Positions 23,969 through 62,149 of a stretch of 64,000 bases of DNA are shown here, piece after piece. This stretch comes from Narcine bancroftii (taxonomy: Eukaryota): NCBI RefSeq assembly GCF_036971445.1, contig NC_091470.1:191394001-191458000 (forward strand). The letters are read 5' to 3'. The notes beneath the pieces were generated by a model. That model searched no databases. It saw only the letters and a list, made by a program, of their open reading frames with translations, and was not told the origin of the DNA. The position numbers and the translations under genes were made by a program. Position 1 is the stretch's first letter; each line of letters starts with the position of its first letter.

Positions 23969-24011
23969 AGCCAATCGCACGCTGCGCTTCGCCGCGTCAG
24001 CTGTTTCCTGG
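23969..24011 (-). promoter_or_regulatory. MHC II proximal promoter X1/X2/Y module
   Basis: Minus strand CCAGGAAACAGCTG (X1, RFX-like), overlapping TGACGCGG (X2, CRE-like), 19 bp spacer, then GCGATTGGCT (Y, inverted CCAAT); canonical order and spacing upstream of exon 1. Confidence 0.88.
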
Positions 24012-25799
24012 TAAGTTGCAAGTTTGCCCTGAATTTTACCAAGCCTGGAGTTTGCTCCACAAGAGGAAGGAATTGCAAATGTGAGGAGGGGCCACTTCCA
24101 ACACTCCCACGGTCCACGCTCCCCCCCCCCCCCCCCATCCATCGATGTGGAGCTCACACGCTGGTTGAAGGAAGTGTTGGAAGTTTGGAGACCAATGTTG
24201 GGAGTTCTTCTTTGAATCGTTCGGACAGGCTGGGCGCGCCTCAAAGAGGGAGAGGCACGTGTGGCAGGTCAGGCGCTGTGCCATGTCCAAATGAACCCCG
24301 GCCGCTTGTTCTGACACCCACCATCATTCAGGGCTCGGAGAGGATGGTCCTGGTTCACATCAACTCCAGCCACCCTCCGGCTCCCACACCACTGAACAGC
24401 CGCCTTCTCCGTGACCTGGAGCTCAGCACCCTCGCTGCAGTCGGATCGCACAGTCAGTGAGGTTCGGTTTCAGCGCCACCTCCACGATCACCCTCCATGC
24501 CGTGTACTCGGCCCCCGACCCCAATCCCTGTTCGCCCGCCAAGGCGAACCGCACCCAGGGCCAACTCCATCTGGGCATCCACCGCGCAGGGCAGGATCTC
24601 CAAAAATCGGGCTAGAGAGGAGAATGGAGGAACGTGCTTTGGGGCTAGGACAACGACCTCTCCCTCAGTGTTAACAACGGTCCGCAACGACGGTGCTGAG
24701 CAGGGGATGGCCGAGGGCTTTGTGACTGGGGAGTAAACGTCTGCAGTGACCGGTCCTGGTCCATCCAATGGCCAAGAAAGGGCAGGAGGAGGCTTCACTT
24801 GTCACCAGTTTCCCCGAACCCCGTCTACAGGGGCCCCAGTGGGAGGATCCTGTCATGGTCCCTGTGGGATGGGAACCCGTCCCCCAACACCCCGAGGAGC
24901 TGCAGAGGGTTGTGAACATGATCAATACCTCCGCCGCAACACTCCTCCTCTCCGCCACACCCTCGCCCCGCAGAATTATTACTAATTGGTAGTGCAAAAT
25001 TAAACTGTACACAGTGTAAACATGTAAACAAATAACAAGTATACGGACAGTGAATGCAATGCAATACAGAAAGAATTTTTAAAAATCAATAAAGTGCACA
25101 AGAGCCCTTAAATGAGACCCTGATTGAGTTTGTGGTTGAGGAGTCTGATGGTAGAGGGGGAGCAGCTGTTCCTGAACCTGGTGGGGCGAGTCTTGTGACA
25201 TGGAGACCTCTTTCCTGGTGCCAGCAGCGAGAACAGAGGGTGTGCTGCGTGGTGACGGTCATTAGCAAGGCAACATTTCGAGTATTGTGTACAGTTCTGG
25301 TCGTCTTGTTATAGGAAGGATGTTATTAAATTGCACACGGAGCAGGAAAGATAAGGCCCTTCAGCCCATCTAGTCTGTGCCAAACTATTTCTCTCCATCC
25401 CACTGACTTGTATCTGACCATAGCTCTCTGAACCCATCCCATCCATGAACATATCCAAACTTTACTTAAATATCAAATTTGAGCCTACATTCACCATTCC
25501 AGCTGGCAGCTGGTTCCACACTCCCACCACTCTCTGCATGAAGATGTTCCCCCTAAACCTTTCCCTTTTCACCCTAAACCCACGTCCTTTACGTCTTTGC
25601 CTCACCAAACCTGAGAGGAGAAAGCATCAGAAAGGTGATTTGTACAATAATGAGAGGTATCCATAAAGTGGATGGACACTGTTTCCCTGCGGATAGGGAT
25701 GTCTAAAATGAGAGGGTGTGTTTGAGGTGAGAGGGGAAAGTTTGAAAGGGGAAGTGAGGGGAAAGGTTTTCACAAAGGGGTGAGTCACGACTGCTCTTC

Positions 25800-26760
25800 A
25801 GTTACTTGCAGCAAAACATGTCCAAATACAGAAGATAAATCTTCATAAAAAAAACTTTATAAAATTCAGCTGAAAGACCATCATCTCCTGATGACTTTCC
25901 ATTTGGCATTTCCTGTATAGCCTCTTTAATCTCAAAATCTGTGAATGGAGCTTCCACTTCTTTAACCTCTTTCTCCCCTAAAACAGGTAAATTTAATTTA
26001 GATAAATAAGATTCAATAGAACCAGCATCCTGTTTCCCCTCAGAAGTATATAATTTTTTTTGTAAAATGAATAAAACTGATCATTAATTTCCTGAGGTTT
26101 ATAGGTAACTGATGAATTCTTTTTCACAGCATTAATAGTTTGTGATGCCTGTTCTGTTTTTAATTGCCATGCTAATACTTTATGAGCTCTCTCACCTAAT
26201 TCATAATAACGTGGCTTAGATCGATTAAGTAGGCGCTCATACTGATAAGTTTGTAATGTATTATAATGCAACTTCAACTTCATTAAAGCAGCTTTTTTTA
26301 ATCTTCTGTAACATCTTTCTGAAATTCCTTATCCAAGTCAGTAATTTGTTTCTCTAACATTAAACTTTCCGCTACATATTGCTTTTTAACTTTCGTAGTA
26401 TAACTAATGATTTGCCCTCGTAAATAAGCTTTCAAAGCATCCCACAGTACAAAATCACTACGTACTGAATTAACATTCTCAACCAAAAATAATGCAATCT
26501 GCTCCTTAACAAAAGTAATAAACTCAGGTGTCTTCAATAGCATTATATTAAATCTCCATCTATAAGATGATTGCACCACCTCTGAACTCACACAAGAAAA
26601 AAATAACATAGAATGATCCGATATTACCTGACTTTTATATTCAGCCTGCAATACTCTACCCAACAAATGTGCTGAAATAAAAAAAATCTAGAAAATGAGT
26701 CATGTCTAGAAGAATGAAAAGAAAAATCTTTCTCTGTCGGGCTCACTCTCCTCCAAACAT
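25800..26760 (-). mobile_element. L1 ORF2 fragment (endonuclease C-terminus to pre-RT)
   Basis: ISDH..WRFNIMLL..LWDALKAYLRGQIISY; YYELGERAHKVLAWQLK; a second deleted L1 piece lies at about 28800-29075. Confidence 0.8.
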
Positions 26761-26764
26761 CCAG

Positions 26765-28720: not shown

Positions 28721-29074
28721 CTACATTTTTCTCTTTATTAAGCCTTTCCTTTATTATCAGAAGCCTTTTCCCAAACTCTCTATTTATTTTTCCAATTGGT
28801 CAACTTCTTTAGCATAATCCTTCTTCATTTTAACTAAGTAACTTATTATCTGACCTCGTAAATACGCCTTCAAAGCATCCCATAAAATAAATTTATTATC
28901 CACTGAATTAGAATTTATTTCTATAAATTCCCAGCAGGATTTGTGACCATAAATTGAATCTTAACAGGTAAAATCTTTTTAATCAAAATAGCCCAATGAT
29001 GAAGCTGCCACTTGTCCTGTCCAATCACTTTTTAATTTTTGTTGTTCTTTCTCTGTTAAATGTGTCTCTTGTAA

Positions 29075-30775: not shown

Positions 30776-30900
30776 ATAATTCTGAACACCGAATGCAAAA
30801 CAATAGAACATGGAACGTAGAACATTGAATTCTGCAGAACATAATGCCCTTCAGCCCACAGTGCTTTGCTGACTTCATAGCCTCTACTGGAACAACTGCC

Positions 30901-32325: not shown

Positions 32326-32945
32326 ACCTTCGGTGGAGTAGACTCTGAAATATATTTACCCTCTACCCAAGACAGATCAAACCAGAGGGCATACATTTGG
32401 CAACAGTGGGGAAATTTTGAGGGGATCTGAGGGGGACCATGACATCAAAGATGATGGGTAGAAGTGCTCCTGTGACTTATGGCCTTAAGGACATGACCTT
32501 CTTCACCCAGAGAGTGGGGAGTACCTGGAACACATCCAGATGGAGTGGTGGGAGGAGAGGGTTTAACAAGTGTCACCCAGGGATAGACAGATGCCGGTCA
32601 AGCGCTGGATTGTGAGGTTAGTCCAGATGGACAGACCAAATGTAGTGTTCCTGTCTTGAAATGACTCTGACGGGCATCGTTCTGATTCCAAGGAGGAAAG
32701 TGTTGGACAATGCAAGGTTAACCTATTGTGCACTTGAACCTGACGTGCATTGTACAGGGAAGAAAATGTCAAGTGAGTGGTATCTGGAAAGTCCCTGGAA
32801 CAGGTTCAACCAAACCACGGTCAACTGATAGGTTCACCAGTAACTCCGCCCCCAGCCAATCGACCAATGCTCAGGGGCAGCCGAAAGGTGTCACCAGTTG
32901 CTGGCAGAAATAGGTCCGTTCTCGTGTGAAATGGCTGGATGTTGT

Positions 32946-35900
32946 TGTCATGATAATGAATATGTATGAGATGTACCGGAAGTCACGTAGTAGGAGAGAG
33001 AGATAAGAACACAAGCAGGAGAACAAAGGAAACGGGAGAATAAAGCCACAGAGAAGTTTACCTGATAAACTTGTGTTTAATGTTTTATTAACTTCACATT
33101 TCGGGCCACAAATGTGACATTGGCGACGAGGATGAAAGAAGCTTGAAGAAAATTAAAGACTAAACAAGATTACAGAGGATTACAGACAACTTCAAGGTGA
33201 TAAGAATTTTCTCTGTGACTCAGTACTTTGGGGCTGAAATATTTCCTCATGGCTGGTGCAAACAGTGACTTTCTAACACATAGTGGAATTGCTCATTTTG
33301 ACCCGACTGGTGATGCAAGCACTGTAAGTGTGAAGTGGAAGACACGGCTGGAAGAATTTGAATCCTATGCCGACAGTCATGGCCTATTTCTACATACCGG
33401 TACGGTTGAACAAAAAGCGCAGAGAAGGGCGTTACTTCTTTTCACTGCGGGACCCTCTGTTCGGGAAACATTTAAGACACTTTTGAATACTGGAAGAAAG
33501 GATGAGTACCAGAAAGCGGTAGATGCATTAAATGCACACTATGTAGTGACACCGAATGCTACATTTCAACGCTATTTGTTTCGGAGAACGAGACAAGAAG
33601 ATGACCAGACAATTGCTCAGTACGTGACGAGACTACGCCAGCTAGCTGTTGGATGCAATTACATGCCAGCTGATTTGGACAACCAATTATTGGATCAAGT
33701 CGTACAGCACTGCAGATCAGATAAACTCAGAAGACGTCTACTGGAAAGAGGGAGTGAGTTGGAACTCACCGATGCTTTAACCATTGCTGCTGCATTAGAG
33801 GCTGTTGAAGGGCAATTTCATACCATGACCCTGAAAGACAACTCAAGCCAGCAAATTAAGAGGCTCTCACATCGCCATAATCAGCCAAGATATACGTCGA
33901 CACATGACGTGGAGTGTTATCGATGTGGAAACCGAGGTCACTTTGGAAAAGACCCATATTGCCTGGCCAAAGTCAAACTTTGCAGAAAGTGTAGAGGTAA
34001 GGACCACTTTGCAAAGAAGTGCAAAAGCAAGTCCAATGCAGACCAGAAGAGGAAGAGTACAACTTCCAAAGGCAAAGCCTGGGGGAAAGAAAAGTATCCT
34101 GGAAAGAAAGATACCATTCGCCAGATAGACAGTGACGATGATGATACCCAGGAGGAACAGAGTTGTTACCAATTTACGTTGAATGAAGTACATCATGAGA
34201 AAGTCCCAGTGATCATTGGTAGAGTGACAGTTCAGGTCATTGTAGACTCAGGCAGTGACAGTAATGTGATTGATCGACATTTATGGGAGAAGTTGAAAAG
34301 GAAAAAGATCATCTGTACCTCAAAGAAGTGTTCCAAGAAACTGTATCCATACAAAGCAACCAAGCCATTGCAGACCATTGGATGTTTTACTGCAACTTTT
34401 GAAGCTGGAGGTAAGTACACCGAAGCAGAGTTTATGGTCATAGAAGAGAGGGGAGAACCATTGCTGAGTAGAAGAGACCTGGCAATACTTCATATTGGAG
34501 CTTGTGTCAATTCAATTCAGTCATACGAGGATATGAAGCAAGAATTCCCCGCAGTTTTCCAAGGAGTAGGAAAGCTGAAAGGTCGACAATTGAAGCTAGC
34601 GGTAGATGAAACGGTCAAACCCAAGGTACAACCAATGCGCCGAACTCCGTTTGGACTTCGTGGGAAAGTTGAAGTCAAAATTAAAGAATTGATCGAACAA
34701 GACATTATAGAACCGGTGGAACATTCGACACAATGGGTCAGTCCCGTAGTGATTGTGCCCAAACCAAAGGGTGACATAAGACTATGTGTTGACATGAGAA
34801 TGGCCAATGAAGCTATAATTAGAGAACGACACCCTATACCAACAGTGGAAGAAATACTTCAAGAACTAACTACCAGCAAGGTATTCTCAAAAATTGATCT
34901 GAAATGGGGCTATTATCAATTAGAGCTGGATCCATTATCCCGAGAGGTAACTACATTTGTGATTCACTGTGGATTGTATCGTTACAAGAGACTATCATTT
35001 GGAATTAATGCAGCTTCGGAGATCTACCAGCATGAAATCCATCGAGTGATTCAAGGCATTCCTGGAGTTGCCAACATTTCTGACGACATCATAGTCCATG
35101 CACCAACGAAGGAAGAGCATGACAAACGGTTGAGGCGTGTACTATCTAGACTACAGGAGGCAGGCCTTACCGTGAATGGAAACAAGTACCAGTTCGGTGT
35201 GTCAGAAATGGACTTCATGGGACACAGACTTACACGGAAAGGACTAAACCCTGCAGAGGCCAAGGTGAAAGCTATTGCAGAGGCACGTGCACCTCAGAAC
35301 GCAACAGAGGTGAGGAGTTTCCTAGGATTAGTCAATTTTTGTGCAAAGTTCATTCCTAATTTCGCTACAGTGGCAGAACCACTAAGGAAACTAACCAGGA
35401 AAGGTGTACCATTTCATTTTGGATCTGAGCAGAAGAAAGCGTTCACAGCGCTGAAGCAAAGCCTGACAGATGCAAAAACTCTTGGATATTACGATCCGGC
35501 GGCATCAACCAAAGTCATAGCGGATGCCAGCCCGGTTGGTTTAGGAGCAGTGTTGGTCCAGATGCATGATGGAGGACCAAGAATCATTGCCTATGGCAGC
35601 AGATCGTTATCAGATGTGGAAAGAAGATACTCTCAGACAGAGAAAGAAGCACTCGGACTTGTATGGGCCTGTGAGAGGTTCCATGCATATTTATACGGCA
35701 TTGAATTTGAACTTATCTCAGATCATAAGCCATTAGAGGTGATCTATGCACCTAGATCCAAACCATGTGCCAGAATAGAGAGATGGGTACTCAGACTACA
35801 ATCCTACAAATATAAAGTAATCCACATTGCAGGGAAAGCAAACATTGCTGATCCGCTGTCCAGATTGGTGAAGGATGGTGGTCCACAATCCAAGTCAGAA

Positions 35901-37687
35901 TTGGGAACAGAAACAGAGAGCTTTGTACGCTTCATAGCTATTCAGGCGACAACGAAAGCTGTGACTACGAAGGAAGTCGAGAGAGAATCCGAACGTGATC
36001 CAGAACTCATGGAAGTAAGAGAATGCATACAGAGTGGACAATGGGACAAGTGTACTCACAAGGCTTACATTCCCATAAGAGACGAACTTTTTTGTATCGG
36101 ACAGTGTGTATTGAGAGGTTGCAGATTGGTGATACCGGAAAGATTGAGACTGAAGATCGTATCCTTAGCGCATGAAGGACACCTAGGTATTGTTGGTACC
36201 AAGCAAAACCTCAGGACCAAGGTATGGTAGCCAAGTTGTGATAAAGACGCAGAGAGATTTGTTAAAACTTGTCATGGATGTCAAATCACAAGTAGGAGTA
36301 ATCCGCCAGAACCGATCCGGAGTACGCAACTTCCGACAGGACCATGGATTGACGTAGCTGTTGATTTTCTTGGACCTTTACCGACGGGTGAATCAATTAT
36401 GGTAGTGATAGATTACTACAGCAGATACTATGAGTACGTGGTGTTGAAGTCCACAACCACTGAAAAAACAATACAAGCGTTAGCAGAGATATTCACAAGA
36501 TATGGATTACCTGTTACATTATACTCTGACAATGGTCCACAATTCATTTCAGAGACATTTACGGAATACATGAGGACCACAGGTATCCACCATCATAAAG
36601 TAACTCCGAAATGGCCGCAAGCCAACGGAGAAGTAGAGAGACAAAATCAATCCATTGAAAAACGATTGAGGATTGCACACGCAGAAGGACAAAATTGGCG
36701 AGAAGCATTGCTATCTTATGAGGCTGTCTATCGAGCAACGCCTCATGCAACCATGGAAAAAGTCCTGCAGAAGCATTTTTTGGGAGAAAAATCCGCACAA
36801 AAATGCCAGAAATAAAGGAAATCCGAGACGACCAGGAGATGAGGGACCATGATGCTGAAAAGAAAGGTGCAGCAAAGCTATACACAGATTCGAAACGTGG
36901 AGCCAAGTATTCAGACATCATGCCAGGAGATAATGTTCTAGTGAGGCATGAAACTGGTGGTAAGCTAGACACACCTTATTACCATCAACCCTATACTGTC
37001 ATATCCAGAAGTGGCAGTATGGTGACAGTCAAGTCTCCGACTGGAGTCCTGTATAAGAGAAATGTCTCAGGTGTAAAAATGTACCAATCCAGAGATATAT
37101 CGAGTGAAGAGGTTGAAAGGCCAATACGAGATGCTGAAACTGAGAAACCTGATGATGTTCCAGAGGCAGTTACCAGCACTCCTGATGAAGTGACTAGAGC
37201 GCCAGAAACACCCGAAGCCGTGGCGAGCAGTATTTCCGACGCTGAGAGTGAACAACCGAGAAGCGACGACAATATCGCAGGCAGGCCAAAACGAAACCGG
37301 AAAGTGCCCAAACGATACTAAGACTTTGTGCCATAGTTTTAATAAGAACTTTGGGACAGTATTTAATCTTATATTATAAAGTGCATGTATGAGTGCTGTA
37401 GGAAGTAAATTTTATGTAGTTGAGTTATAGTATTACCATTAGTTACGATGTTTGTAGGTTTCCGAGGGATATTGGTAAGTGAAGGTAAAGTTTATTTCTA
37501 ATTAGAGGAGGGATGTCATGATAATGAATATGTATGAGATGTACCAGAAGTCACATAGTAGGAGAGAGAGATAAGAACACAAGCAGGAGAACAAAGGAAA
37601 CGGGAGAATAAAGCCACAGAGAAGTTTACCTGATAAACTTGTGTTTAATGTTTTATTAACTTCACATTTCGGGCCACAGATGTGACA
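32946..37687 (+). mobile_element. Full-length young Ty3/Gypsy LTR retrotransposon (Mag-like, single gag-pol frame)
   Basis: 174-bp LTRs 32946-33119 and 37514-37687 (TGTCA...TGACA, 3 mismatches); 5-bp TSD GTTGT; PBS TGGCGACGAGGATG 33121-33134 complementary to the tRNA-Ser(GCT) 3' end; PPT AGAGGAGGGA 37504-37513. Confidence 0.97.
33249..37321 (+). pseudogene. Gypsy gag-pol polyprotein (Gag CCHC x2, PR, RT, RNase H, IN) disrupted by one stop and one frameshift
   Basis: CYRCGNRGH...C and CRKCRGKDH...C knuckles; DSGS protease; LCVDMR, KIDL, YKRLSFG, ISDD RT; DASPVGLGAVL and DHKPL RNase H; integrase HHCC and DDE (VDF, SDNG, NGEVER). TAG at 36228-36230 (expected KVWWP) and a frameshift near 36753. 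Confidence 0.93.
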
Positions 37688-38579
37688 GTTGTCACTTTCC
37701 CTGCTCCACAGTGTCCACCCGACCACCGAACCATCCCGATAGTACCGTCGCCCTTCCTATCCCTCCTGCTCCCCCTCAGATCATGGAGCCCCCGTTCTCC
37801 GTCGCTTCAGCGCGCTGCTGATTGGAAATCCCTGCCCACACTCGAAATCTCAAGCAAGCAGGGAATGTTGGAAACCCTCAAATTCAAGTTCAAAGAGTTT
37901 TAAATAGTAAAAGTAGACTTTATTCATAATAAATTATTTGCAGCCAAAAACCATTCAAATTCTTTTCGTACCTTTCATTTTGTATCCATACATTTCCATC
38001 ACTGTATATATTGTTACATTAATTTCCATTGCCACCACTGCGACACCTTGTAGTTAATCCCTCCAACCCATGTAGTGAGGGACTTACCCTTGGTCTCACC
38101 CTCTCAGTGCCCAGTAATGGGAGGGCTCTAGACTGTGGACCTTCTCCCCAGTGCCCCGACATTGGCTGCACCAAGCTTTAGTGCGTCCCTCACCACGCAC
38201 TCCTGCAGCCTGGAATGTGACAGTTGGCAGCACTCCCTCATCAACATCTCTATGTGCTGACAGACCATCAGAGTTTAGACAGACAAATGGTCACCTTTAA
38301 CCAAATTTATGGTGTTCCAGTGGTCCTCAATGTTTGACTGTGTGTGCGACCCTGGGAATAAGTTCAAGTTTATCATCTGACTGCACATATACTGTACTGA
38401 ACCAGACAAAAGAGCATTTCTCCAGACTATAAGTGTGTGCGCACACAATAATCGCGTCTAAAGATGAATAGATGATGTAAAATAAATAAATAGAAATATT
38501 TTGGAATTATTTATTTATTACAGAATATTGCTTATCAATCTCAAAGCCAGCAGGAAGAAGCTATTACCCAACCTGGCAG

Positions 38580-42988: not shown

Positions 42989-43028
<40 letters not shown>

Positions 43029-45405: not shown

Positions 45406-46651
45406 ATGAGCCATCAAGACATAGAGGGCTACAGCTCATGCTGGTAAATGGGATGAGTGTGGATACGTGTTTGTTGGTCTCAGATACTTCTGCCAAGGGG
45501 AATGTTTCCTATTGCCCACCAGTTCATACCTCTCAAAATTGTGGTGCCCTCTATCAGACTCCTGCAGCCTTTTCCACTTCATGGAAAACAAACCCAACTT
45601 ATCCAACCTCTCCTCATACTGGCAACAAACTGATGAATCTCCTCTACACCCTGTCTGGTGCAATCACATATCTCCTGTGGCACAGTGACCAGTAATGTAC
45701 ACAGTACTCCAGCTGTAAAGTTGTACCAGTTCTGGACACTCTGGACAGGGTGCAGAAGAAATTTATCAAGATGTTACCTGGAATGGGAAACAAATCTTAT
45801 GAGTCAAGTCAGCAAAGCTGGGACTTTTCATTTTGGAGTGCAGAAGGATGAGAGGAGACGATAGAGGTCTACAAGACATGCACCTGTTTCCCAGGGCAGA
45901 ATCAGCAAACACCGAAGGACTTCTGTACAAAGTGAAGGGAGGGAAGTTTAGGGGAGACACCAGGGTTGTTTTTTTTACAAAGAGAGTTGTGGGTGCCTGG
46001 AATGCCTCGCCAGGGGTGGTGGTAGGGGCATTTAAGAGGCATGTAGATGAAAGGAAAATAGAGGATTTGGGGTAGGGAGGGTTTAGTATTTTTGAGAAGG
46101 AATATATGGGTCAGCACAACATCGAGGGCCGAAGGGCCTGTACTTTACTGCATTGTTCTATGTTGAAGATCCCTGCTCCAATATTCCATGACCTGACTAA
46201 GTAAGGCATGCTTTCCTAATCACCTATCCAGGTGTGCTGCTTCCTTAAGGGATGGATGCCCAGCACCCAGTTTCTAACCCAGCCACACTGTTTCACCACT
46301 AATTTGGGGAGTGTTGTGTCCTAGGACCTGGAACCTGAGAAATTAGAAACTCCAGGATAACAGCTTCCCCATGAATTACAAAAATGCCGCAAGTGCTTGA
46401 AATCTTGGGAATACTCATCGGGTCAGTCAGCGTCCGTGTCGAGAGGCGCAAAGTTACCACCTCAGACCCAGTTGGGGGCCCCAACTCTAAAATCAGCCAA
46501 TGAGTAGGTAGCCTGCGGAATGCATCACCAGCTACCGGGAAGAAAATATTCGGGCTGCTTTCAGCCTCTCTCAGCCACCGAGGCTCAGGCGCCCTCTGCA
46601 TCCGCGGATCCACATATTTCTGTTAAAGTAGGTGGGTACCGATGGAATTCT

Positions 46652-46716
46652 GGCCAATAGCTGACCATGGATAATTTTCATCACCGGTTGTCAGGCAAAA
46701 GCAGCAGTGAAGGTGT
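46652..46716 (-). promoter_or_regulatory. Second (orphan) S/X/Y-like module
   Basis: Minus strand ACACCTT (S-like), 14 bp, CCTGACAACCGGTG (X), 20 bp, GCTATTGGCC (Y). Confidence 0.55.
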
Positions 46717-46855
46717 GAATCTGTGCAGGACTTGGGATGGTAATGAGTTAGCTTATTGCCAGACACACAAGTACAATGCATTTGAAATTCTTACTTCCTG
46801 CAGCAAAACCTTGTAACGAGAAAACCAAATCAAATAATATATTTTAACTTACTGT

Positions 46856-49272
46856 TGTGGTGACCCACTACTCGATAGGTGTCCTGACACACAAGATGGC
46901 TGTTGAACACGGCGATCCCACATGGACCACACCAACTAAATGGCCTTTTTCACGCCGCACAGTGGGAAACGACGAGCACTGGCGGCATCACTGACCAATT
47001 GGCGGTCGGCAAGCCAGTGACATAATTGCCGCTGGAAGCAGCACGACACTAGGCCCCGTGGGCCTATATAAAGCAGGGCAAACCACTCAATAAACCAGAT
47101 TTGACTGTACTCACGGAGTGTGCGTCTTGTTTCTGTGCCCTCCTGTGTAGCACATGCTACATTGGTGACCCCAACTGGTTCAAACCATGTTTTGGACCCA
47201 GCGATGGAAGAGCAAGCAAAGCTCCATGAAGTTTTACTGAAATTGCCGACATTCTGGCCACAACCACTGGTGTGATTCAAGCAGGCTGAGGCCCAGTTAC
47301 AGCTACGACAGATCACAGCTGACAACATGAGGTACCACTACTTGATGAGCTTGCTCAACCAGGACACAGCCACCAGGGTCATTGATTTCCTCTGGCAGCC
47401 TCTGGAGCAGGACAGATATGTGGTCCTAAAAGAGCTTTTAACTCGCACAGGGCCCCTTGATGAGTGACATGATAGGTTTAACTGATGTGCACAAGCATTG
47501 CCTGCTCTTCAAGCAGATATTCCTGGAGTGACTACCAGAGGATATCCGACTGCTGCTTGCTGAAGGAGGATTTCAGTGACCCCAGGAAGGTTGCAGTCTG
47601 AGCAGACATGTTCTAGGGAACAAAAAGAGACAACAGTGTTGTGGTGGAGCAAGTCACAAAGCCTCACATGCACCCAGTGAGCAGTATTGCTTCTCTCACT
47701 TGCGATGGGGTTTAAAGACCTGTCGATGCTGTCCCCCCACCCCCATGTTCCAAGGAAACACCACAGCCGACCGTCGTTAGTAGCTGCAACGCCCAGCCAT
47801 TGAGACAGCCTCCTCCACATGTGGGCAATGGTTCCTTGTCACATCCTGCCCCCCCTCAGACTCTGATACTCGTAACAGGAAACTGGGCCCATCCCTGAGG
47901 GCTGTGAACAATTCCAATGTAAGAACTTTGCTTCAGAGACAGACAATTCACATGACATTCACCCTGGTGGCAGTGCAACAACCACTCCTAGGAGCGGATT
48001 TCCTCAGGGCGCATTACCTGTTAGTGGACCTCAGGGGCGGGAGGTCAAGCTACCCGCTCCCAACTACATTTCATTACCACCACCAGCGAAGAGTTTGCAC
48101 ACATCCTGGCAGAATTGCCTCTGTTGTGGTGCCACAGTTTACTCAGCAGAACTGAAACATGGGTTACGGCACCACATCCTCACAAAGGATGGGGGGAGGT
48201 GGCATGTCCTTCTCCATGCCAGGGCACACCGTCTCACAAAGAGTTCCAAAAGATGGAAGAGCTGGGAATCGTGCAGCAGTCCAACAGTCCCTGGGCATCC
48301 CCCCCCCCCCTACACATGGTACTGAAGGCAGCAGGGGGACGGACAGGTATCTGTTGCCCCACATACAGGGCTTTACTGTTAACTTACAGGGGGCACGGAT
48401 ATTTCTGAAGGTCGAACTTATCAGGGGCTATCACCAGATCCCGGTCCACCCTGAGGACATTGCTAAAACTGCCATCATCACACCCTTCATTTTGTTTGAG
48501 TTCCTCAGGTTGCCCTTCGGGCTAAAAAACATGGCTCAGACATTCTAGAAGCTGATGGACGCAGTGGGCCAGGATCTTAGACGTGTTCATTTACTTGGAT
48601 AACATGCTGATAGCCATCCATAACCACAAAGAACATGAGCCCTGCATCAGGCAGTTATGCACCCACCTCAGTGCATTTGGCCTGACCATCAACCCGGACA
48701 AATGCCAATTGGGGTGAGAGCCAATAGACTTCCTGGGCCACAGGATTAATAGACACAAGGTGACACCTCTGTCTGAAAAGGCAGAAGCTGCCAGGTGCTT
48801 CACCAAGCCACACGGTGAAAGGCCTCAAGGAGTTCGCTGGTATGATTAATTCCTTTCACCGCTTCACATGCGTGGCTCAAACCATCACATTTGGACACCA
48901 TCAACCAATCACCCCACCACCCCACATCGTAAAGGCAAGCCACCAAAATCCACCAAAAGACAGCTCACGGATCATCAGGTCTGGGGGGGGGGGGAGGGGG
49001 GGTAGTCACGTGGTAGTCCGCTACCCGATAGGCATCCTGGCACACGAGATGGTGGTTGAACGTGGCGATCCCACAAGAACCACACCAACTAAATGGCCTT
49101 TCTTCCTGGGCTGCAGATCATGCAGCAGAAAACAACGAGTACTGGCGGGAATGCCGACCAATTGGTGATGTCATTTCCACTGATATAAAGCAGGATAAAC
49201 AACTCAATAAACCAGTATCAATTGTACTCATAGTGTGTCTTTTTTCTGTGCCCTGCGGTAGCATGTGCTACA
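46856..49272 (+). mobile_element. Degenerate, internally deleted Gypsy element with both LTRs
   Basis: LTRs about 46856-47161 and 49009-49272 (TG...GCTACA, diverged); 4-bp TSD CTGT; PBS TGGTGACCCC (tRNA-Trp-like); G-rich PPT; gag KLPTFW and RT ELIRGYHQIPV..LPFGLKN remnants. Confidence 0.85.
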
Positions 49273-49979
49273 CTGTACGCTAAAGATAATAAATATTAAA
49301 TGGTGGAGAGATAATTGATATTTATAATTTCAGTAATGCAAGTCCTTAGAACAGACAATATTTTGTGTTTATGATTAACATAGAACATTACAGCACAGTA
49401 CAGGCCCTTCAACCCTCGATATTGCGCTGACCTCTATTCCTTCTTCAAAAATACAAATACATGAGAAAAAAGGAGGGAGAGCTGGCAGTGCTCCCATTCC
49501 CTCCCTTGACAGTCACCCAGTTACTGAGTTTTAGGGGTGACTGCCTCCCCGAAACTCCTCTCTATCATTACCTCTTCCTCCCTTATAATCCGAAGTGCAT
49601 CCAGCTCTAGCCCCAGTCCCTTAACTCGGTTTTTTAGGAGCCACACCTTTTGCTGGTGTAGTCATCAGGAAAAAACTGCTCTTGAGCATAGAGGTACTGG
49701 TTTTCAAGCTTCTGCCCAAAGGTGGCAGTGAGAAGAGGTTGCTACCAGAGGGGTGGTGGCCATTTATGATGTTGGCTATCTTCTTGAGGCAGCGCCTCAC
49801 ATGCATATCTGCAATGGAAGGGTGGCCAGAGCCTGTGATGGACCTGGCCATGTTTGCTACCTTCTGCAGCTTCCTGGACATTCAAATTCCCAAACCAGGC
49901 TGAAATGCAACCAGTCAGCCTAGTTTCCCCAGTGCATTTGCAGAAGTCTGATGAAGTATCCAATGCCGCCAAATCCTCT

Positions 49980-51560
49980 TAAAAATTAATTGTCCCGGGG
50001 AGCAAGAAGTACACATGTTGCTGGTTAATGAACGTGGACCAATGGCACCTGAGGTGGGGAAAAGTTTTGAAAAAGATATAGCCCCCAAGGAGGATGTCTG
50101 GGCTTCATGTACACTTCTGATCTGAGCTCCAACAGAACTCCATACACTGAACCCTGGTGAAGATGCTGGAGATCTGGTTTGGAGCGGCTGAGGCATGTAA
50201 CAAAAATTGGTTGGATCAGATTGCAAAGGTCAACAAGAAACTGTGTCTGTGGGAGCTGTGCTCTGTCTCAATAAAGGGGAAGAACCTGGTCACCAAGAGT
50301 GAGGTGCTGTGGTGGTCACCCTCACCAAGGCAGTCTTCCAGTTCATATGGGCATCCAAAATTGAAAGGGTTTGAAGGGTCACCATTTAAAAGTCACCAGA
50401 CAATGGAGGCGAGAGGGTACCCAATGAGGGCCCACAACTTCATGTGTGGCTGCATTGGGCTGTGCGTGGAACCAACTTACCAAGTGCTGCTGTGTACTGA
50501 GGATCTACCTGTCCCAGGTTTTGTGAAGGATTGGCCTGGTCCTTTGGCCACACAGTGTCCCAGTCACTGGATCTTGGGTGGTTCCATCAGCAGACTGTCC
50601 AGGACATCTGGCAGAATGTGTCATCGGCAGTGCTCACTAATCACCATCAAGACATGGCCTGGCTGGTGTTAAGGAAAGCTCTCCCAGTCAGGTCCTGCCT
50701 GTACTCCAGAAATATTTCCTGCGCGTTGTCAACGCATGGTGACCCCGAGATACGGTGGAGTGGAGACAGTCTTTGCAGAACATGGATTTGCTGAAGATGG
50801 TTGGTGCTTGGGTTCCCTCCCAGCTGCACAGTGTTGATTGACTGCACTCAGCAAATGCAGGGCTGGAGGGTTGGGGGTGATGGAGGGGGGGTGGGCAGAT
50901 GTGGCGGAAGGTGGCAACTCTAGCTGGGGCGATGGAGGGGGAGCACGGATATTTACCTGGGTGAATGTGGTTCCAACATCCCCCAGGACAAAGCAACGAC
51001 TTGATTGACAGGTCTGTTTCATGTTAACCATTGTGGTGCTGTCATGGGATGTGGAAACAGACCCTTCAGCCCATCATGTCCTGCCAACAATCATATTCTG
51101 TCCACATGAACCACATCCCAGCCCTATCACTCAGGCACATTTATAATCTGATTTAAACAATTAAATTTTCACGGTTCATCCCCAGCAGCAGTGTGTCAGA
51201 CGACTCTCTGATCTATGGACTGTTCCCAGGGATGCACACAGAATCTCCATAACCACTGGAAAACCATCAACTTGGTAAAAGATGCACTTTAGCATGCCCA
51301 AATATTTGTCTTTCAGCATACATGCTGAGGTCAATGCAAAGGTGCTGGGGGTGCGGGGAGGTGGGGGGGAAAGGTCCAGTCTAGAGTCCTCCCATTACCA
51401 GGCACTGAGGGCCTGAGACTGAGGGGAAGTCCCTCAAACAACAGTGATGGTGGGGACGGGTGGCGAAGGAAGAAACGACAAGGTGTCACAGTGGTGAATG
51501 TAACAATCTACAGAGAAGGGAATGTATGGAAACGAAACAATAGGAAGAGACTGCACTATG
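49980..51560 (+). mobile_element. Tx1-like (L1 clade) LINE 3' fragments
   Basis: KMLEIWFG..SIKGKNLV; HQDMAWLVLRKALPVRS; related copies at about 360-530 and 1115-1800 (+), 31490-31793, 37900-38360, 57040-57560 and 59990-60600 (-). Confidence 0.7.
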
Positions 51561-51569
51561 TGGACATAG

Positions 51570-54770: not shown

Positions 54771-54849
54771 CCAAGCCAAAGAAGTTATTGCATGCATGGT
54801 GTATTAAATAAATTATTTTAAAAAACGTACAATATGGGTAACAGGCCCT

Positions 54850-55090
54850 ACCCGCCCACCAAGTACATCCCAGTTTATATCTCCCTGGGAAGTCCCCGCT
54901 CCGCGTCCTTGCCCCAACAACAGCTTCCTTGACCCCTGTCCCAGCAACAGCTCCAGGGCGGAGCCTGGGAAGTCCCGTCCCACAGGTCGGAGCGGCCCGG
55001 CCCCGCCCGAACTCTCGGATCGTTGCCAACTCGTGTCAACGTTTAAGTCGCTTTATTGTTTGATTTGCGTCTGCCCGAGTCACCACTTTC
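54850..55090. promoter_or_regulatory. CpG-rich promoter-like island with two kB sites, GC boxes and X-like boxes
   Basis: GGGAAGTCCCC 54887-54897, GGGAAGTCCC 54967-54976, GGGCGG/CCGCCC boxes, CCCAGCAACAGCTC 54940-54953; high CpG density. Confidence 0.45.
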
Positions 55091-55619
55091 ACGGGTCAGT
55101 GAGACATCGCTGACAACCCCCCACCCCTTCTGTAAAACCTCTCAGAACGTATGGTCTCGGGCAGAGAGGGATAAATGTTTGAAAGGTCGAGGGACTGAGA
55201 GTTCCGGGCAACGGACACAGAAGAGGAGTTGGGGGCAGCCCAGAGCGGCCATTGAAGGGGATAGGTTTGATGGGTCGACTCTAGCCTATACCTTCCCCGG
55301 GGAGTCACCCTCACTACCCCATCCCTCCCACTCCGACCTCAGGCCCATGATAAACCCCACGGGTAATGCACACTGGAGGAATCAATTTCCAGGAGGCCCC
55401 AATTTCCAGGAGGCCCCTTCACTCCTACCTGTCCCTTTAAATACCCCCCCCCCCCAACTCCCAATCTTTGGCCAGTGGAGCCCCAGGTAAATCAAGGAGC
55501 AATACCTCATCTTCTGACTGGGCATATTGCAGACAACAGAACTCCACAATGACATCAACCAGCCATTCCAGTTTGTGTCAGGATTGGCCGATGATGTCAA
55601 GGTATCAATCTGAAACAGA

Positions 55620-55882
55620 AAGGATGGGGGTGAGCTGTGGCCATTCCTAGGGGAGAGGAGAGGGGTTTCAGCTGTGAACGTCCCTGGGGGAGGGGTTGAG
55701 AGTGACCTGTTGCCGTTCCCTAGATGGAGGGGGTTTGAGCTGTGAAAGTCCCTGTGGGAGGGGGTGAGCTATGAACTTCTCTGGGAGGGTATGAATTTTG
55801 ACCGTCTCTGGGGGGGTGGGGAGGGGGATTGAGCTGTGTCCGTCCCGGGGATGGGGGGGAATTGAGCTGTGACCCTCCTGGG
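55620..55882. repeat. About 30-40-bp tandem repeat
   Basis: Repeated GGGG(T/A)TGAGCTGTGACC(G)TCCC units; a single copy of the unit occurs at 61201-61222. Confidence 0.7.
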
Positions 55883-58069
55883 AGTGAAACCGGAGCCATG
55901 GCGAAAACAGACGTGGTCCAAACAACCGGTGTAAGCGTTGTTCAGGGTCATCATTGTTCCGGTGAACCTATGTACTTTTTTGCCCTTTTCCCTTGCAGTT
56001 TGTTGGTGCCCGGCTTGCCACAGGTCACCCAGTGGCGAGTGACTGATCCCAGCAAGTGCAGGGTGGAGTGGGGAGGGGGAGAGATGGAGGGGTATAGGTG
56101 GTGGGGGTGAGTGTCGAGGTGAGATTGGGGTGGGATGAGTAGGGGTGGGAGACATTTACCTGGGTGAATGAGGTTCCAACACCCCCAGGACAAAGCAACC
56201 ACTTGATTGACAGATCACCCCCTCCTCCCATGGTGGTGCTGCCCTGGTGCATGGAAACTGATCTTTCGGCCCATCATGTCCTGCCGACTATCAAATCCAC
56301 ATGGACCATGTCCCAGCCCTTGGTCAGTGACCATCTCTGCCCTGACCACTCAGGCATGTTTATAATCTGGTTTATTATAATTTAATAATTTGGAGATACT
56401 GCAGGTAACAGGCCACTCAGTTACATTGATGTGACCAATTAACCCACTAACCCCATATGTATTTTCGAACATGAGAGGAAACCCATGCAGACACAGGGAA
56501 AATGTACAAACTCCTTACAGACAATGCTGGATTCGGACTCGGGTCTTGGCACAGCCATGGTGTGCAAATGTGGTGCCACTCCGCAAGTTCCAGATTCCAA
56601 CCACTGGGGTTAATTCTTCCCCGTATCCCCTCTTAACCTCTGACCCCTCACTCCAAACCTTATATATTTTGACACCTCTGTCAGCAGCCTCACCCCCCAC
56701 CCTCCCAATCTCAGCATCCACCACTCCAAGAACAAACCCAGCCTCTCCCATCTCTCCTCATAACTGAACCATTCCAGCCTAGGGAATGTCTCGAGGAATC
56801 TCCTCTGCACCCTCTCCAGTGTGGCCCCCTCGCACGGTGGGGGACTGGAACTACTCACAGGCCTCCAGCTGTGTTCTGATCCATGTTTTGCTGGGTGGTG
56901 CCACAACCTCCCTGCTCTGATCTTCAATGTTCCATAGATTGAATCCTGTATCACATGCACCTTCCCCTCCATCCCTCCACCTGTCCAGTCACCTCCCAGC
57001 ACAACCAGGTCACATTTGTTTTGATATTTCACAAATAAAGTTTATTTTAATAAAAAAATACACAAAGAAACAATATAGGCGATGTATTTTAACCTTCAGA
57101 ATGTTCAGTCTATGTATTCAGAGCAACTGGTTCTGTAACACAACAGTGTTGGCACATCCTTTTATTTCATGGATGGGTATCCATGGGGTGATGAACCTTT
57201 CATTGTTTAATGGGCTTCCCTACCCTGCAGCTCTCCTGTCCTTCCCATCTCAAGGTCTTTGATACACTACCCAAGTCACCATCATATTGGGTCCACCAAG
57301 CCTCACTGTATCCCTCAGCACATACTCCTGCAGCCTGGAATGTGCCAGGTCAACCACATTCCCTCATCAACAACTCCATGTGCTGGAAAACCAATAGGAC
57401 GAAAGGACATCGTTCAGAGTCAAGGATCTTCAAGCACACTGAGGTCCCTCAGTTTCCACCCCTCAATGTGTATCCAAATCTTAAAAGTCCTCCCAGACTG
57501 TATGACCTCACAGTTGTCAGGATTAAATACCATCTGTTCTACCCATCTCCCCCACTGACCAATCTCATTCTGTGGAACGGGGAATGCAGGAATCTGCAAA
57601 GGCTGGAATCTTGAGCCAACAATGAGAAGCTGCAGGTACTCAGCAGGTCAGGCAGTGACCATGGAGAGATACAGTCTGTCAGTGTTTTGGGTCAAGATAC
57701 TTGTCAAGAGATGCAGGGAGGAATCTGGGGTCTCTCTATCCTCTATTGATGACATTCACTAGAAACGTTGCTAAAATTACCAAGGACTCTTTTCATCTAG
57801 CACACAGTATCTTTGACCCACTATCATCAGGAAGGAGGTACAGGAGCATCAAAACCATGACCGGCAGGCTGGGGAATAGCTTCTTCCCACACGCTGTGAG
57901 ATTGATGAACTCTGAGCCTCTTAGTAAGGAAATAGAGTAAATTATTCCACAATATTTATACATATTCATTTTATATAATATCTTTTAATGTAAACTATGT
58001 CTGTGATTATTATCTGTTGTATTTGAGAAGTGTGGTCCTGTTTTGTCTGATAACAAGTTATTATCAACT

Positions 58070-58760
58070 TAAGACAGGTAGGGAAGGAGCCCAGTGAAGT
58101 AGGGAGCTTTGGGCAAAGGTGGAGGTCAGGTGGAAACTGTGGAACTGGATTAGGGTGGGGTGTTACTGATCTGCTGCTCTTCAAGTTTGGGGTTGGCCAC
58201 TCCCAGACCATAGGCAGTCACATCTGTGTGGGAATGGGGAGGGGAGGTAACATGGCTGGAAACTGCGAGTTACAACCAGCTCCATCAGAGTGCAGGTGCT
58301 CAGTGAAGCGGTTGGCCCATGTAGGTCTGGTGTTACCAGGGGTGGTGTCACTAGGTGGAGGAGGTCACACTGAGTGAACTGCATGCAGATTAGGATGAAT
58401 GATGGACATAAGAAACTCTCACCCCAGAGATGTGTTAGTGGCTTTGGATGGAGGTGAGGGGAGAGATATGCGGACAAGTTGGGTGAAATGTGGGAACCTA
58501 GTGAACTCAGCTCTTGTTCTACCCATGGGGGTGAGGATGGGGAGAGGGGTGAGAGCAATTTTGTGGAATGGAGATGTGCATTTGGACTTTATTAATGACA
58601 GTGGCAGGTGTCTGCAACAAAGAGGACATTCCAGATTTGCTGGAGTGGAGGCTTCACCTGGGTACAGAAGGGTGCAGACCAATGACTGGGAGAAGGTTAT
58701 AGTGTCCTTACAAGGGGCCGGATGAGAAGAGGTGTAGTCCAGGTAGCTGTGGGTGTGAAT
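58070..58760 (-). mobile_element. Degenerate Penelope-like element (GIY-YIG region)
   Basis: accgcttcactgagcacctgcac (RFTEHLH) and LICMQFTQCDLLH remnant motifs. Confidence 0.55.
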
Positions 58761-59175
58761 TTGTCACAGGAGTTGGTGGATAATTTTATCTCCTGTGATG
58801 GCTTCCCACAAAACCACCCCTTTATCACTCCATCTCCCTTCACCAAGCCAACCATGGATCCAAGTTTCTCACTTGGCCTGGATCCCATTGGCTCCAACCT
58901 TCTGGGCCAGTCTCCCCTATGGGACCTGGTCAAAGGCCTCGGTGAAGGTCAGGTGACCACATCAAGACATTCAGTTGTGGGTGAACCCTCCCAATGTAGT
59001 TGTTCAGACTGCTGTCCCTCCAACAAAGCCACAGGACCAGTTCTGTCCAAGTTTAGGTTCATCCAATCCATCGGAGTTTCCCCACTTAGCTCATTCTCCC
59101 CCATCACCCCCACCCACTGAGCTTCCGCCTGTCCCATCCACCCTGTTTGGACATAATGGGAACCAGCACTGAGCT

Positions 59176-59291
59176 GGAAAGTCCCCAGAAGTGAAACCAG
59201 GAACTATTGACTTGCACCTGACCACCCTGCTTCCCTGCCAGACGTTCACCAATCACAGGCTGACTCTTTGGGCGCGTCACCCGTTGTTCGG
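59176..59291 (-). promoter_or_regulatory. Distal X/X2/Y module with adjacent ISRE and NF-kB site
   Basis: Minus strand CCGAACAACGGGTG (X), TGACGCGC (X2), 21 bp spacer, GTGATTGGTG (Y); then GGTTTCACTTCT (ISRE, 59198-59187) directly abutting GGGGACTTTCC (kB, 59186-59176). Confidence 0.7.
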
Positions 59292-61013
59292 TGAACTGTG
59301 CAACTTGTGGTATTGTTGAGCCCCAGTGGATACGGGCTGACCCCTGGAGACCGGTGGCGGGACTGCAGGCGAGCCGCTGCCTCCGTCATTCACCCAATCT
59401 ATGTTTCGCCCTCATGGGGTTCAATCGCTTTGACCCACGGCCCAGATTGAAACCGAACTGAGTTGTTTATTTCCACGTGTACTGAGTGCAGTAAAATACT
59501 TCTTTTTGCGTGTTATCCAGACAAGTCAGCTCATACAGCCGCACTGCAATAATATACAAATAACTCAACAAAAGTCCAGGGAATCGTGTTACAGAAAGTC
59601 GAAACGGGTTGGATGCAGTGTTAGAAAGTCATGGTTCAGGAGACAGAGAGAAGTTAAACAGTGCATCTGTTACCCGTTTGAGGACCATTCAAGACTCCGA
59701 TAACAGCAGGTATGAAACTGCCCTGAATCGGGATGCATCTTGTCCCTGAGGAAAAGGAGGAGAAGAGAGTGTGACCAGGGTGGGGTGGGACTGAGAAAAT
59801 ACTGGCAGCTTCCCCGAGACAGCAGGAGGCGCAGATGGAGTGGGTGGGGGGGGGGGGTGATGCCCTGAGTTGCTCTCACCTCTCTCTCTGTAGATCCCGT
59901 CCCAGGCCCTGCTGCATCCAGGCAGCATACGTTCTATGGGATATCTGTAAAAGTCGGTAAAAGACCCAGGGACATGTCATGTGAAAATTCCTCAATCTTC
60001 TACGAAAGCACACTCTCTCACAGTTCCTCGGACAGGGCGTTGGTGACATTTATGGTGGGCAATCTGCTCAACTTCACTGCAGGATTCCCAAGTGCATTGG
60101 GACTGAGGTTGTGATCGTACATGAAGGATCCTATGGGGAATGCTTGTTGGTGAATTTCTCCAGACGTCCTGGACAAGCTGCTCAGGGAACCACTCCACAG
60201 TATCCCTCGAGTCCTTGCCCCTCAGTTTCTGCAGGACGTTCCGTGCTGACCCCTGCCTGATCGACTTGTGGTCAAAGGTGCTGGAAGGTGGTGTGGCAAC
60301 GTCCAGCTGAGTGGGACATTGCGTGACAACGGGACCGGGCCTGTCCCTCACAACACCTGGGACAGGTAGAATAGTTCCCTCCCTCTGACATAGATGTTGG
60401 AGGCTCCGTCAGAATCATTGCTAGTCCTCGGTGTCAGCCCGGGGGTCGGGGCCCTCTCCAGGGACATGAACACACAGTCAGGGCTCGTATGGGGTACTGC
60501 GATGACAGAGAGGTCAGTTCAGGGATTCACTGAATCAGCTCGCGAGGAAACCCGTGTGGTGTCGAAGGCAGCTTTAAACCCGAATGAAACTCCCCAGGTC
60601 ACATCATGAAGTGTCGCAGTGTACCTCCGGCCTGGTAACCCGTTCTGCAGGAACCCCCCCCCTCTCATCCGTCAACCCATTTCAGGTACTCCTCCCCCCC
60701 ACCCCTTGCAGCCCTTCCCCGGCAGACCACAGAACCCTCACCAATGTGAACACCGTGCACCCCCCCCCCCCCCCCCACCTCGACCACAGAAAGAGCAGCC
60801 TGGGTGGGGGGAGGTGGTGGTGACGGGGACAATGACAAAGACAGGGAAGGATTAAAGTGAGGTGGGTTTAGATTGACAAGTTGGTCAGCAAGGAGAAGTC
60901 GGGCCGAAGGGCTGTCTCACTCTATGAGACTGACACTTCTCGGCTCTGCGGTGAGGCCATTCAGCCCGACACACTGACTCTGGGTCTGTCTCCACGGGCG
61001 CTGCCCGACCACC

Positions 61014-61046
61014 TGGAGTTTCCTGGTTTGATTTCCTTTCGGTTTC
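61014..61046. promoter_or_regulatory. kB-like plus triple-GAAA ISRE-like element
   Basis: TGGAGTTTCC 61014-61023; TTTCCTTTCGGTTTC 61032-61046 (GAAACCGAAAGGAAA on minus). Confidence 0.45.
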
Positions 61047-62149
61047 TCCCCATCGGAGAGAGAGGGAACGCAATCCCTCACTCGGGGTTGGGTTGGCTCT
61101 CAGAACTGACACGGTTACAGTTATGGCGTCCTTGCGGGGTGGGGGGGGGGGGGGGGGAGGTGGGCAATGAGCATCCCTGGGTGTGGAGAGTGGGGGGAGG
61201 GGGGTTGAGCTGTGACCGTCCCCATGACTGAAACTTGAGCCGCGGGATACAACCGGTGTGAATATCAGCCGGAGCAAGCGCATCAGTCTCCGGGTGAACC
61301 CGTGGGCTTGCTCTCCTTTTTCCCTGCAGTTTGTTGGTGCCCGGGTTCCCTCTGGTCTGATCTGATCCCAGTAAGGGTCGGGATGGAGGTTGGGCGGGTG
61401 CCCAAGGTCCCCGCTCCTGCAAGGCCCCCTTCCCTTCCAGGCCCCTAGTCTTGAGTCTCCCCAGCGGTAATGATTAATCCACCTCTGGGTGGGGGTGGGG
61501 GATGAGTGGGGGTTTGGATGGGGCAGGGCTGTGTAGGTGAGTAAGGGACTGAGGGAGTGTCCCACAAGGTCTGGGTGGGGGGGTGCAGAGGATCTCACCC
61601 TCCCCAGGATTGATCTGTAGGCTTCACTCAAGGGTTGTGTGAGTGTCTTGAAGCAGGGAAGTCAGCCCTTTGGCCCATCAAGTCTGTGACTCTGCTCCCA
61701 ACACTCTCTGCAGCAGTGCATTCCAGTTATACCTACTCTCTTTGTGAAGATGGTTCCCCTCAGATTCCTCAAATCTATGTCCTGTGGATTGATTTACCTT
61801 TGATGTTGGGGATCATTCCCTGCAGTTTCTCCTGTCACACCTGCCCCCAGTCATTGAAGATTATGGGGACAAGGCTGGGCCATGGGGCTGTGGGAAAATG
61901 GATCAGCTTGTGATTGAATGGTGGGGCTGGCTTGATGGGCTGAATAGCCTATTTCTGCTCCATTCTGTATTATAGTGTCAGATGGTATGGGGTGTTGGCA
62001 GAGGCTGGTCCTGTTCTCACCGGAGGAAGTTACCAGGGACATGTCCCTGCAGGATTCCCAAGTGCGTTGGGAGCAGGTCAATGGGACTAGTGAAATATTG
62101 GTTGGCACAGTCTAGAAAGGCATAAACATTGAGCAGAGTCCTAAAGGGG

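What the first reader, a model, noticed from the sequence alone, without database searches (positions are those of the whole stretch)
23969..61400. Candidate distributed MHC II control region: immune cis-modules surviving as islands within TE debris
Seen: the few non-TE, CpG-retaining islands in the 40 kb upstream of IIA (24.0, 46.6, 54.9, 59.2, 61.0 kb) each carry immune motifs (X-Y three times, all co-oriented; kB four times; ISRE-like GAAANNGAA at about 24460, 59187, 59449 and 61032). Established: HLA-DRA and H2-Ea have upstream RFX/CIITA-bound S-Y modules acting as an LCR. Inference: an LCR-like architecture in the oldest MHC-bearing lineage; I am not aware of a description of this, but cannot check the literature here.
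Basis: inference. Interest (0 to 1): 0.75.

Follow-up and report, generated by a model that had tools for sequence, protein, structure and literature searches.

The report
Distal MHC-II X-Y modules in ray
Upstream of an electric ray's MHC class II alpha gene lie four extra copies of the X-X2-Y switch that sits in the gene's own promoter, 9 to 35 kb away and spaced as in humans; they are likely distant enhancers of a kind known from mammals, but their activity and any locus-control role are untested.

Summary
The window is the Narcine bancroftii MHC IIA locus (minus strand). A motif read from human CIITA-bound sites picks exactly these five of 174 Y boxes at human spacing (0.07 expected per shuffle; 0 of 500 shuffles reach five). 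Only the boxes are shared; spacers and flanks are at chance identity, and no class II exon relic lies beside them. Two carry a kB site 63-68 nt past Y. A diverged contig in another public run holds the 59.2 and 61.0 kb islands as one 0.84 kb element, split here by repeats. Best reading: distal RFX/CREB/NF-Y/CIITA enhancers, like mammalian S'-Y'/XL elements (0.6); promoter relics or alternative promoters are the main rival (0.25). 'LCR' is untested. New member of a known kind; no cartilaginous-fish description found in the library searched.

The parts
5353..5498 (-). MHC IIA exon 4 (connecting peptide, transmembrane, cytoplasmic tail, stop)
   Evidence: tblastn with P0001, 100%; splice acceptor and stop read
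9016..9297 (-). MHC IIA exon 3 (alpha-2)
   Evidence: 100% to P0001, Narcine bancroftii class II alpha
10950..11198 (-). MHC IIA exon 2 (alpha-1)
23719..23785 (-). MHC IIA exon 1 coding part (leader), GT donor; intron 1 is 12.5 kb
   Evidence: P0001 residues 1-22, 100%
23971..24018 (-). Proximal promoter X1-X2-Y module (X1-to-Y gap 27 nt), 190 bp above ATG
   Evidence: 11 of 13
24208..24471 (.). GAS-like site (24208-24216) and ISRE-like site (24463-24471) in the promoter CpG island
   Evidence: motif matches only
24765..24817 (-). Weaker sixth X1-X2 with Y at a 38-nt gap (28 plus one helical turn); no pyrimidine tract
32786..32912 (-). Distal module A, 9.1 kb above ATG: X1-X2 32887-32906, Y 32864-32868 (gap 28), second CCAAT 32856, GC box 32846-32851, kB 32786-32795
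32946..37687 (+). Gypsy-type LTR retrotransposon inserted 40 bp above module A; LTRs 98% identical, 5-bp target duplication
37688..37900 (.). CpG-rich other flank of that insertion (o/e 0.77), kB-like 9-mer at 37824-37832; contiguous with module A before the insertion
   Evidence: contiguity inferred from the target duplication
46497..46546 (-). Distal module B, 22.7 kb above ATG (gap 29)
   Evidence: 11 of 13; inside a unique X1 contig 46117-47090, depth 7.2
46654..46702 (-). Distal module C, 157 bp from B (gap 28)
46853..49275 (+). Decayed LTR element starting about 155 bp above module C; supplies part of the CpGs of the '46.6 kb island'
54887..54976 (.). kB pair 80 bp apart in a CpG-rich stretch (o/e 0.89); no X-Y; next to a very high-copy repeat
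   Evidence: bin depth
58939..59457 (-). Distal module D, 35.5 kb above ATG: kB 59073-59082 and 59176-59185, IRF-like 59187-59196, Y 59249-59253, X2-X1 59273-59292 (gap 29), ISRE-like 59449-59457
   Evidence: 11 of 13; X6 record 23 matches 58939-59448 with 42 substitutions and 19 gaps
59449..60881 (.). 1433 nt, largely repeat, where the diverged contig has 127 nt
   Evidence: table 8; X1 bin depth 465-577; self-match 60302-60370
60882..61051 (.). Second half of the module D element: kB-like 9-mer at 61015 and ISRE GAAACCGAAA 61037-61046
   Evidence: X6 record 23, 35 substitutions and 8 gaps

Best explanation
Four distal X1-X2-Y modules lie 9, 23 (two) and 35 kb above the Narcine MHC IIA gene, with the same boxes, order, orientation and spacing as its promoter; they are likely enhancers that would assemble RFX, CREB/ATF and NF-Y and recruit CIITA. 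Shown: the modules, their geometry, their excess over chance, no shared flanks, low copy of B, C and D, and a diverged copy of D. Inferred from mammals: CIITA recruitment would evict nucleosomes, spread acetylation, start intergenic transcripts and contact the IIA promoter, and perhaps a divergent class II gene beyond the window. The kB and IRF sites beside A and D would add inflammatory and interferon input. Transposons have inserted around and between the modules without hitting the boxes.
For: (1) A 13-position motif read from the human CIITA-bound XY alignment (PMC4381081 supplement) at gaps 27-30 scores 11-12 for exactly 5 of 174 Y boxes, none at 10, next 9; 0.07 expected, 0 of 500 shuffles reach five; 13 other gap bins in the real window give 3 hits in all (Poisson about 1e-4 for four). 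(2) Leave-one-out: each module ranks 1 of 170; a model of the four distal ones alone picks the true promoter, 11.7 bits vs 3.9 next. (3) With self-repeats masked, an unguided search seeded with the promoter returns exactly the four; 0 of 320 decoy anchors reach that score; a fifth member collapses it. (4) The pyrimidine tract 5' of X described in PMC2278383, not in the model: 20 of 24 in the distal four, p about 0.001. (5) Spacers 2-8 of 17 and flanks at chance identity: boxes kept, the rest not, as PMC4381081 reports for mammalian MHC II. (6) kB 68 and 63 nt past Y in A and D; 0.007 expected per module (post hoc). (7) X6 record 23: 42 of 510 substitutions over D vs 35 of 170 over the 61.0 part, p 4e-5. 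(8) Weak hint: the four zero-difference pieces listed for X5 (RNA is a guess; one study) flank D within 58.6-60.6 kb, as intergenic RNA flanks the DRA S'-Y'.
Against: No binding, accessibility, methylation, looping or reporter data. No S/W box at the mammalian distance (best 4 of 6; one perfect match only 5 nt from the window scored). I had seen the ray modules before reading off the human motif, so one search is not blind. The promoter-only match count is modest (7 seen vs 3.1 at 11 of 20, 10 of 200 shuffles). Unmasked searches were partly or wholly captured by LINE copies. Background is one 64-kb window, not the genome. X6 also holds zero-difference pieces of the window, so record 23 may be a paralogue or old allele, not an orthologue, and I could not see whether its boxes are intact. 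Uniform co-orientation fits promoters as well as enhancers. RFX5/CIITA in rays is recalled, not shown (0 hits).
Confidence: 0.6

Rival explanations
1. The modules are promoters: relics of decayed tandem class II duplicates (as proposed for human XL-7 and XL-8), or alternative upstream promoters that splice into IIA.
For: All four face the same way as IIA (about 0.05 by chance, 0.477 to the fourth power). Module A has promoter-like double CCAAT plus GC box. PMC2292219 calls XL-7/8 likely DRB pseudogene promoter remnants. Several annotated elasmobranch IIA genes span 37-96 kb against an 18.4-kb coding span here.
Against: No IIA exon relic from 29 class II alpha proteins (best E about 0.03 outside the gene); no MHC or Ig Pfam hit in 195 frames from 20.7-64 kb; no similarity of the downstream 420 nt to the promoter/exon 1 and no leader-plus-donor exon. 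Relic boxes would need selection to outlast their flanks, which makes them functional elements anyway.
Confidence: 0.25
2. Module D (with the 61.0 kb half) is the promoter of its own CIITA-, NF-kB- and IRF-regulated non-coding RNA or of a gene beyond the window, and the modules do not act together.
For: X5 pieces on both sides of D, the deepest at 59352-59710 (RNA is a guess). Upstream of IIA lies a divergent class II gene in sawfish (21 kb), catshark (14 kb) and white shark (222 kb).
Against: No Pfam or Rfam match in the region. It does not explain A, B and C.
Confidence: 0.1
3. Chance matches or transposon-borne motifs without function.
For: Generic kB and ISRE counts are at or below chance; about a quarter of the window is self-repeated; modules A and C abut LTR elements.
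Against: no module overlaps a self-repeat; B and C lie in a unique contig and D in a low-depth bin (79 vs up to 4e5 in repeat bins); A and C lie outside the LTR ends.
Confidence: 0.05

Closest known systems
HLA-DRA distal S'-Y' enhancer (-2.3 kb) and the H2-Ea distal X-Y element (proposed MHC II locus control region)
   Same: Second X-X2-Y module upstream of a class II alpha gene (passages of PMC2677874, PMC1904273, PMC2292219); same box order and gap.
   Different: Four modules at 9-35 kb rather than one at 1-2 kb (the weak 24.8 kb site is the nearest positional match); all co-oriented, whereas I recall the DRA and Ea modules as inverted (recalled, not found); kB and IRF sites beside two modules; no S box; no functional data.
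[quoted passage not shown]
   Same: Multiple non-promoter X-Y modules in the class II region, bound by RFX and CIITA.
   Different: Homology to any human element is not shown, only a shared grammar; some human ones are pseudogene promoter remnants, for which no sign was found here.
XY box of CIITA-bound sites (PMC4381081)
   Same: X1-to-Y gap 27-29 against 27-30 counted by hand in top rows of that alignment; boxes kept, spacers free; W/S box dispensable outside promoters.
   Different: There binding is measured, and many bound sites do not regulate a gene; here only sequence is known.

Membership tests
MHC II X-X2-Y (S-Y) module | X1, X2, Y boxes in fixed order and orientation | tested here: met
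   5 modules, 11-12 of 13 to the human-derived motif
MHC II X-X2-Y (S-Y) module | Constrained X-to-Y spacing | tested here: met
   gaps 27, 28, 29, 28, 29; off-phase bins nearly empty
MHC II X-X2-Y (S-Y) module | Pyrimidine tract 5' of X | tested here: met
   24 of 30 positions
MHC II X-X2-Y (S-Y) module | S/W box at fixed distance 5' of X | tested here: not met
   recalled 6-letter consensus not found at the expected distance, in the true promoter either; so these are filed as X-Y, not full S-Y, modules
Distal S'-Y'/XL enhancer | Located away from any class II promoter | tested here: met
   9-35 kb above ATG; no class II exon nearby
Distal S'-Y'/XL enhancer | RFX and CIITA binding; CIITA-dependent enhancer activity | not testable with these tools
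   needs ChIP or reporter assays
Distal S'-Y'/XL enhancer | Sequence conservation | tested here: inconclusive
   one diverged copy of D, orthologue or paralogue unknown; A was outside the laid stretch
Locus control region | Position-independent, copy-number-dependent, tissue-specific expression of a linked transgene | not testable with these tools
   definition recalled; no data
Locus control region | Cluster of tissue-specific open-chromatin sites with intergenic transcription | tested here: inconclusive
   only X5 contig pieces flanking D, RNA status guessed
Class II pseudogene promoter relic | Adjacent decayed leader or domain exons, or flank homology to the live promoter | tested here: not met
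   class II beta was not used as a query

The most novel reading that the evidence does not exclude
Long-range control of MHC class II by arrays of CIITA-enhanceosome modules is ancestral to jawed vertebrates: the ray keeps a 35-kb co-oriented array, two members coupling X-X2-Y to NF-kB at a fixed 63-68 nt, that acts as one control region for divergently paired class II genes and has been stretched apart by transposon insertions.
Probability: 0.3. Interest if true: 0.72.

Novelty: new member of a known kind. Interest (0 to 1): 0.55.

Why it matters
Distal X-Y enhancers of MHC II are described in human and mouse. Finding the same boxes at the same spacing, at the promoter and at four distal sites, in a cartilaginous fish would date both the enhanceosome grammar and its long-range use to the base of adaptive immunity. 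It gives exact 50-bp targets for cross-species reporter assays in existing CIITA- and RFX-mutant B-cell lines, and a motif for finding class II regulatory DNA in shark and ray genomes. The kind of element is known, so the gain is evolutionary depth, not a new mechanism.

Tried and rejected
No whole genome is held, so no genome-wide background; shuffles, decoy anchors and off-phase gaps in the real window stood in. The first greedy search (mean score) was captured by LINE copies; the unmasked minimum-score version found A, B, D at k=3 but mixed a LINE pair in at k=4; only the masked run is clean. Pairwise alignment of ten islands gave no significant module-to-module homology (best A vs D, z 3.5); 55.75-56.3 and 61.1-61.4 kb are copies of one repeat also at 50.8-51.1 kb. 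In one search no long X6 piece was listed over B and C or the 54.9 kb pair, and no zero-difference X8 piece was listed; table 8 was cut to 32 rows and holes prove nothing. No related locus in metagenome contigs. No Rfam match. No exact CTCF-like core, one 1-mismatch site (motif recalled). No earlier findings. The S-Y profile supplement of PMC1802633 could not be read; it would give a second independent model. The human alignment was used only as a short majority motif, not as a full matrix. CIITA/RFX terms gave 0 hits in the elephant shark paper and its supplement. One search (X-box word) returned unrelated papers.
Full report
Locus. The alpha-2 exon is 100% identical to an annotated class II alpha chain of Narcine bancroftii (P0001). 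tblastn with 29 class II alpha proteins places four coding exons on the minus strand: 23785-23719, 11198-10950, 9297-9016 and 5498-5353. No other class II alpha exon was found (best E about 0.03 elsewhere). Pfam found only retrotransposon domains and three weak unrelated hits in 195 frames from 20.7 to 64 kb (the 113 frames below 20.7 kb and inside the Gypsy element were not scanned). No genome is held.

Observation. Listing all 174 Y boxes showed two more composites of the same build, at 32868 and 46658. All five are on the gene's strand with X1-to-Y gaps of 27, 28, 29, 28 and 29 nt. The kB and ISRE sites are mostly where stated, except 59187. Generic consensus counts are at or below chance (kB 9 vs 16.6; GAAANNGAA 11 vs 13.65). 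Narrow forms exceed it (GGGACTTYCC 5 vs 0.43; GAAACCGAA 3 vs 0.23; 0 of 300 each) but were chosen after looking. CpG-rich tiles are as often transposon as island (at least 8 of 16).

Is the composite more than chance? The promoter 20-mer alone ranks D and B first and A and C in a five-way tie behind them; the count excess is modest (10 of 200 shuffles). In leave-one-out each module ranks 1 of 170 (10.5-16.7 bits vs 2.5-5.4 next), and the distal four alone find the promoter. To allow for my own selection I ran an unguided search seeded with the promoter. Unmasked it was disturbed by LINE copies. With self-repeats masked (126 Y boxes left) it returned exactly A-D, beat all 320 decoy anchors (10.5 vs at most 8.9), and collapsed at a fifth member. 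An outside model came from the human CIITA-bound XY alignment (PMC4381081, supplementary file read whole), reduced by eye to 13 positions and gaps 27-30. It gives 11-12 for the five, 0 at 10, 2 at 9; 0.07 expected; 0 of 500 shuffles reach five. Thirteen other gap bins give 3 hits, one being A's second CCAAT. This test is independent in origin but not blind. The pyrimidine tract, outside both models, is present (20 of 24; p about 0.001). An S box is not.

Origin. The modules share boxes only: spacers 2-8 of 17, post-Y 12-20 of 60, flank alignments within the null apart from the trivial B/C overlap. None overlaps a self-repeat. In same-species DNA contigs B and C lie in one unique 974-nt contig and D in a low-depth bin; A lay outside the laid stretch. 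A Gypsy element with 98%-identical LTRs and a target duplication sits 40 bp above A and splits a CpG-rich stretch; a decayed LTR element starts about 155 bp above C. Run X6 (organism B, DNA guessed) holds an 837-nt contig matching 58939-59448 (42 substitutions, 19 gaps) and then, 127 nt on, 60882-61051 (35, 8); the window has 1433 nt there. It is the longest X6 piece listed, and the X-Y part is less diverged than the ISRE part (p 4e-5). X6 also has 178-222-nt pieces with no difference from the window, so the contig may be an orthologue, a paralogue or an old allele. X5 (RNA guessed, one study) has four zero-difference pieces, 1231 nt in all, on both sides of D; they account for most of its 0.19 share. 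This is a weak hint only.

Mechanism. [quoted passage not shown] I infer the same for A-D (0.6). The kB sites 68 and 63 nt past Y in A and D, and IRF-type sites at D, would add inducible input. Class II genes flank IIA divergently in sawfish, catshark and white shark (supplement rows of PMC10751288), so the targets may include a gene beyond the window. The main rival is promoter relics or alternative promoters (0.25): co-orientation favours it and human XL-7/8 are a precedent (PMC2292219 passages), but no exon relic or leader was found, and class II beta was not used as a query. Chance or transposon origin is unlikely for the composites (0.05) and open for the 54.9 kb kB pair.

Literature and novelty. 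Searches joining shark, cartilaginous fish, elasmobranch or teleost with MHC II promoter, X/Y box, SXY, RFX or CIITA (listings only) showed no description of distal X-Y modules in cartilaginous fish. 'Promoter' occurs 0 times in the main text of PMC10751288 and PMC8010645; PMC7281430 and PMC1351924 passages add nothing on this. The library lacks most subscription papers, including early nurse shark class II work and the 2003-2005 LCR papers, which I saw only as citations, so absence is not established. It works like the mammalian distal S'-Y'/XL elements; it meets the X-Y sequence criteria, fails the S box, and binding and LCR criteria are untested. Verdict: new member of a known kind, interest 0.55.

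Noticed in passing
window 32946-37687 and 46853-49275: Both LTR elements upstream of IIA inserted just above an X-Y module (40 bp and about 155 bp), sparing the boxes; could reflect open chromatin or chance.
   Followed up: partly
window 24765-24817: Sixth X1-X2 with a Y box one helical turn further away, 0.8 kb above the promoter module; the closest positional match to the mammalian DRA/Ea distal element.
   Followed up: partly
window 21000-23700: A 2.7-kb CpG-rich stretch (o/e 0.75) at the 5' end of the 12.5-kb IIA intron 1, continuous with the promoter island; holds a weak X2-Y match at 22463 without X1.
   Followed up: no
window 11474-11642: A 169-N assembly gap about 280 bp above exon 2, within a CpG-rich stretch around exon 2.
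   Followed up: no
window 55749-56320, 61080-61400, 50790-51125: Three diverged copies of a low-depth repeat with an acceptor-like polypyrimidine tract on the plus strand; no Pfam match; identity unknown.
   Followed up: partly
window 58603-60596: Contig pieces identical to the window in run X5 (RNA guessed) on both sides of module D, deepest at 59352-59710; possible enhancer RNA or non-coding transcript.
   Followed up: partly
window 24208-24216: GAS-like palindrome 200 bp above the promoter X box, with an ISRE-like site at 24463-24471; a possible direct interferon input to the IIA promoter.
   Followed up: no
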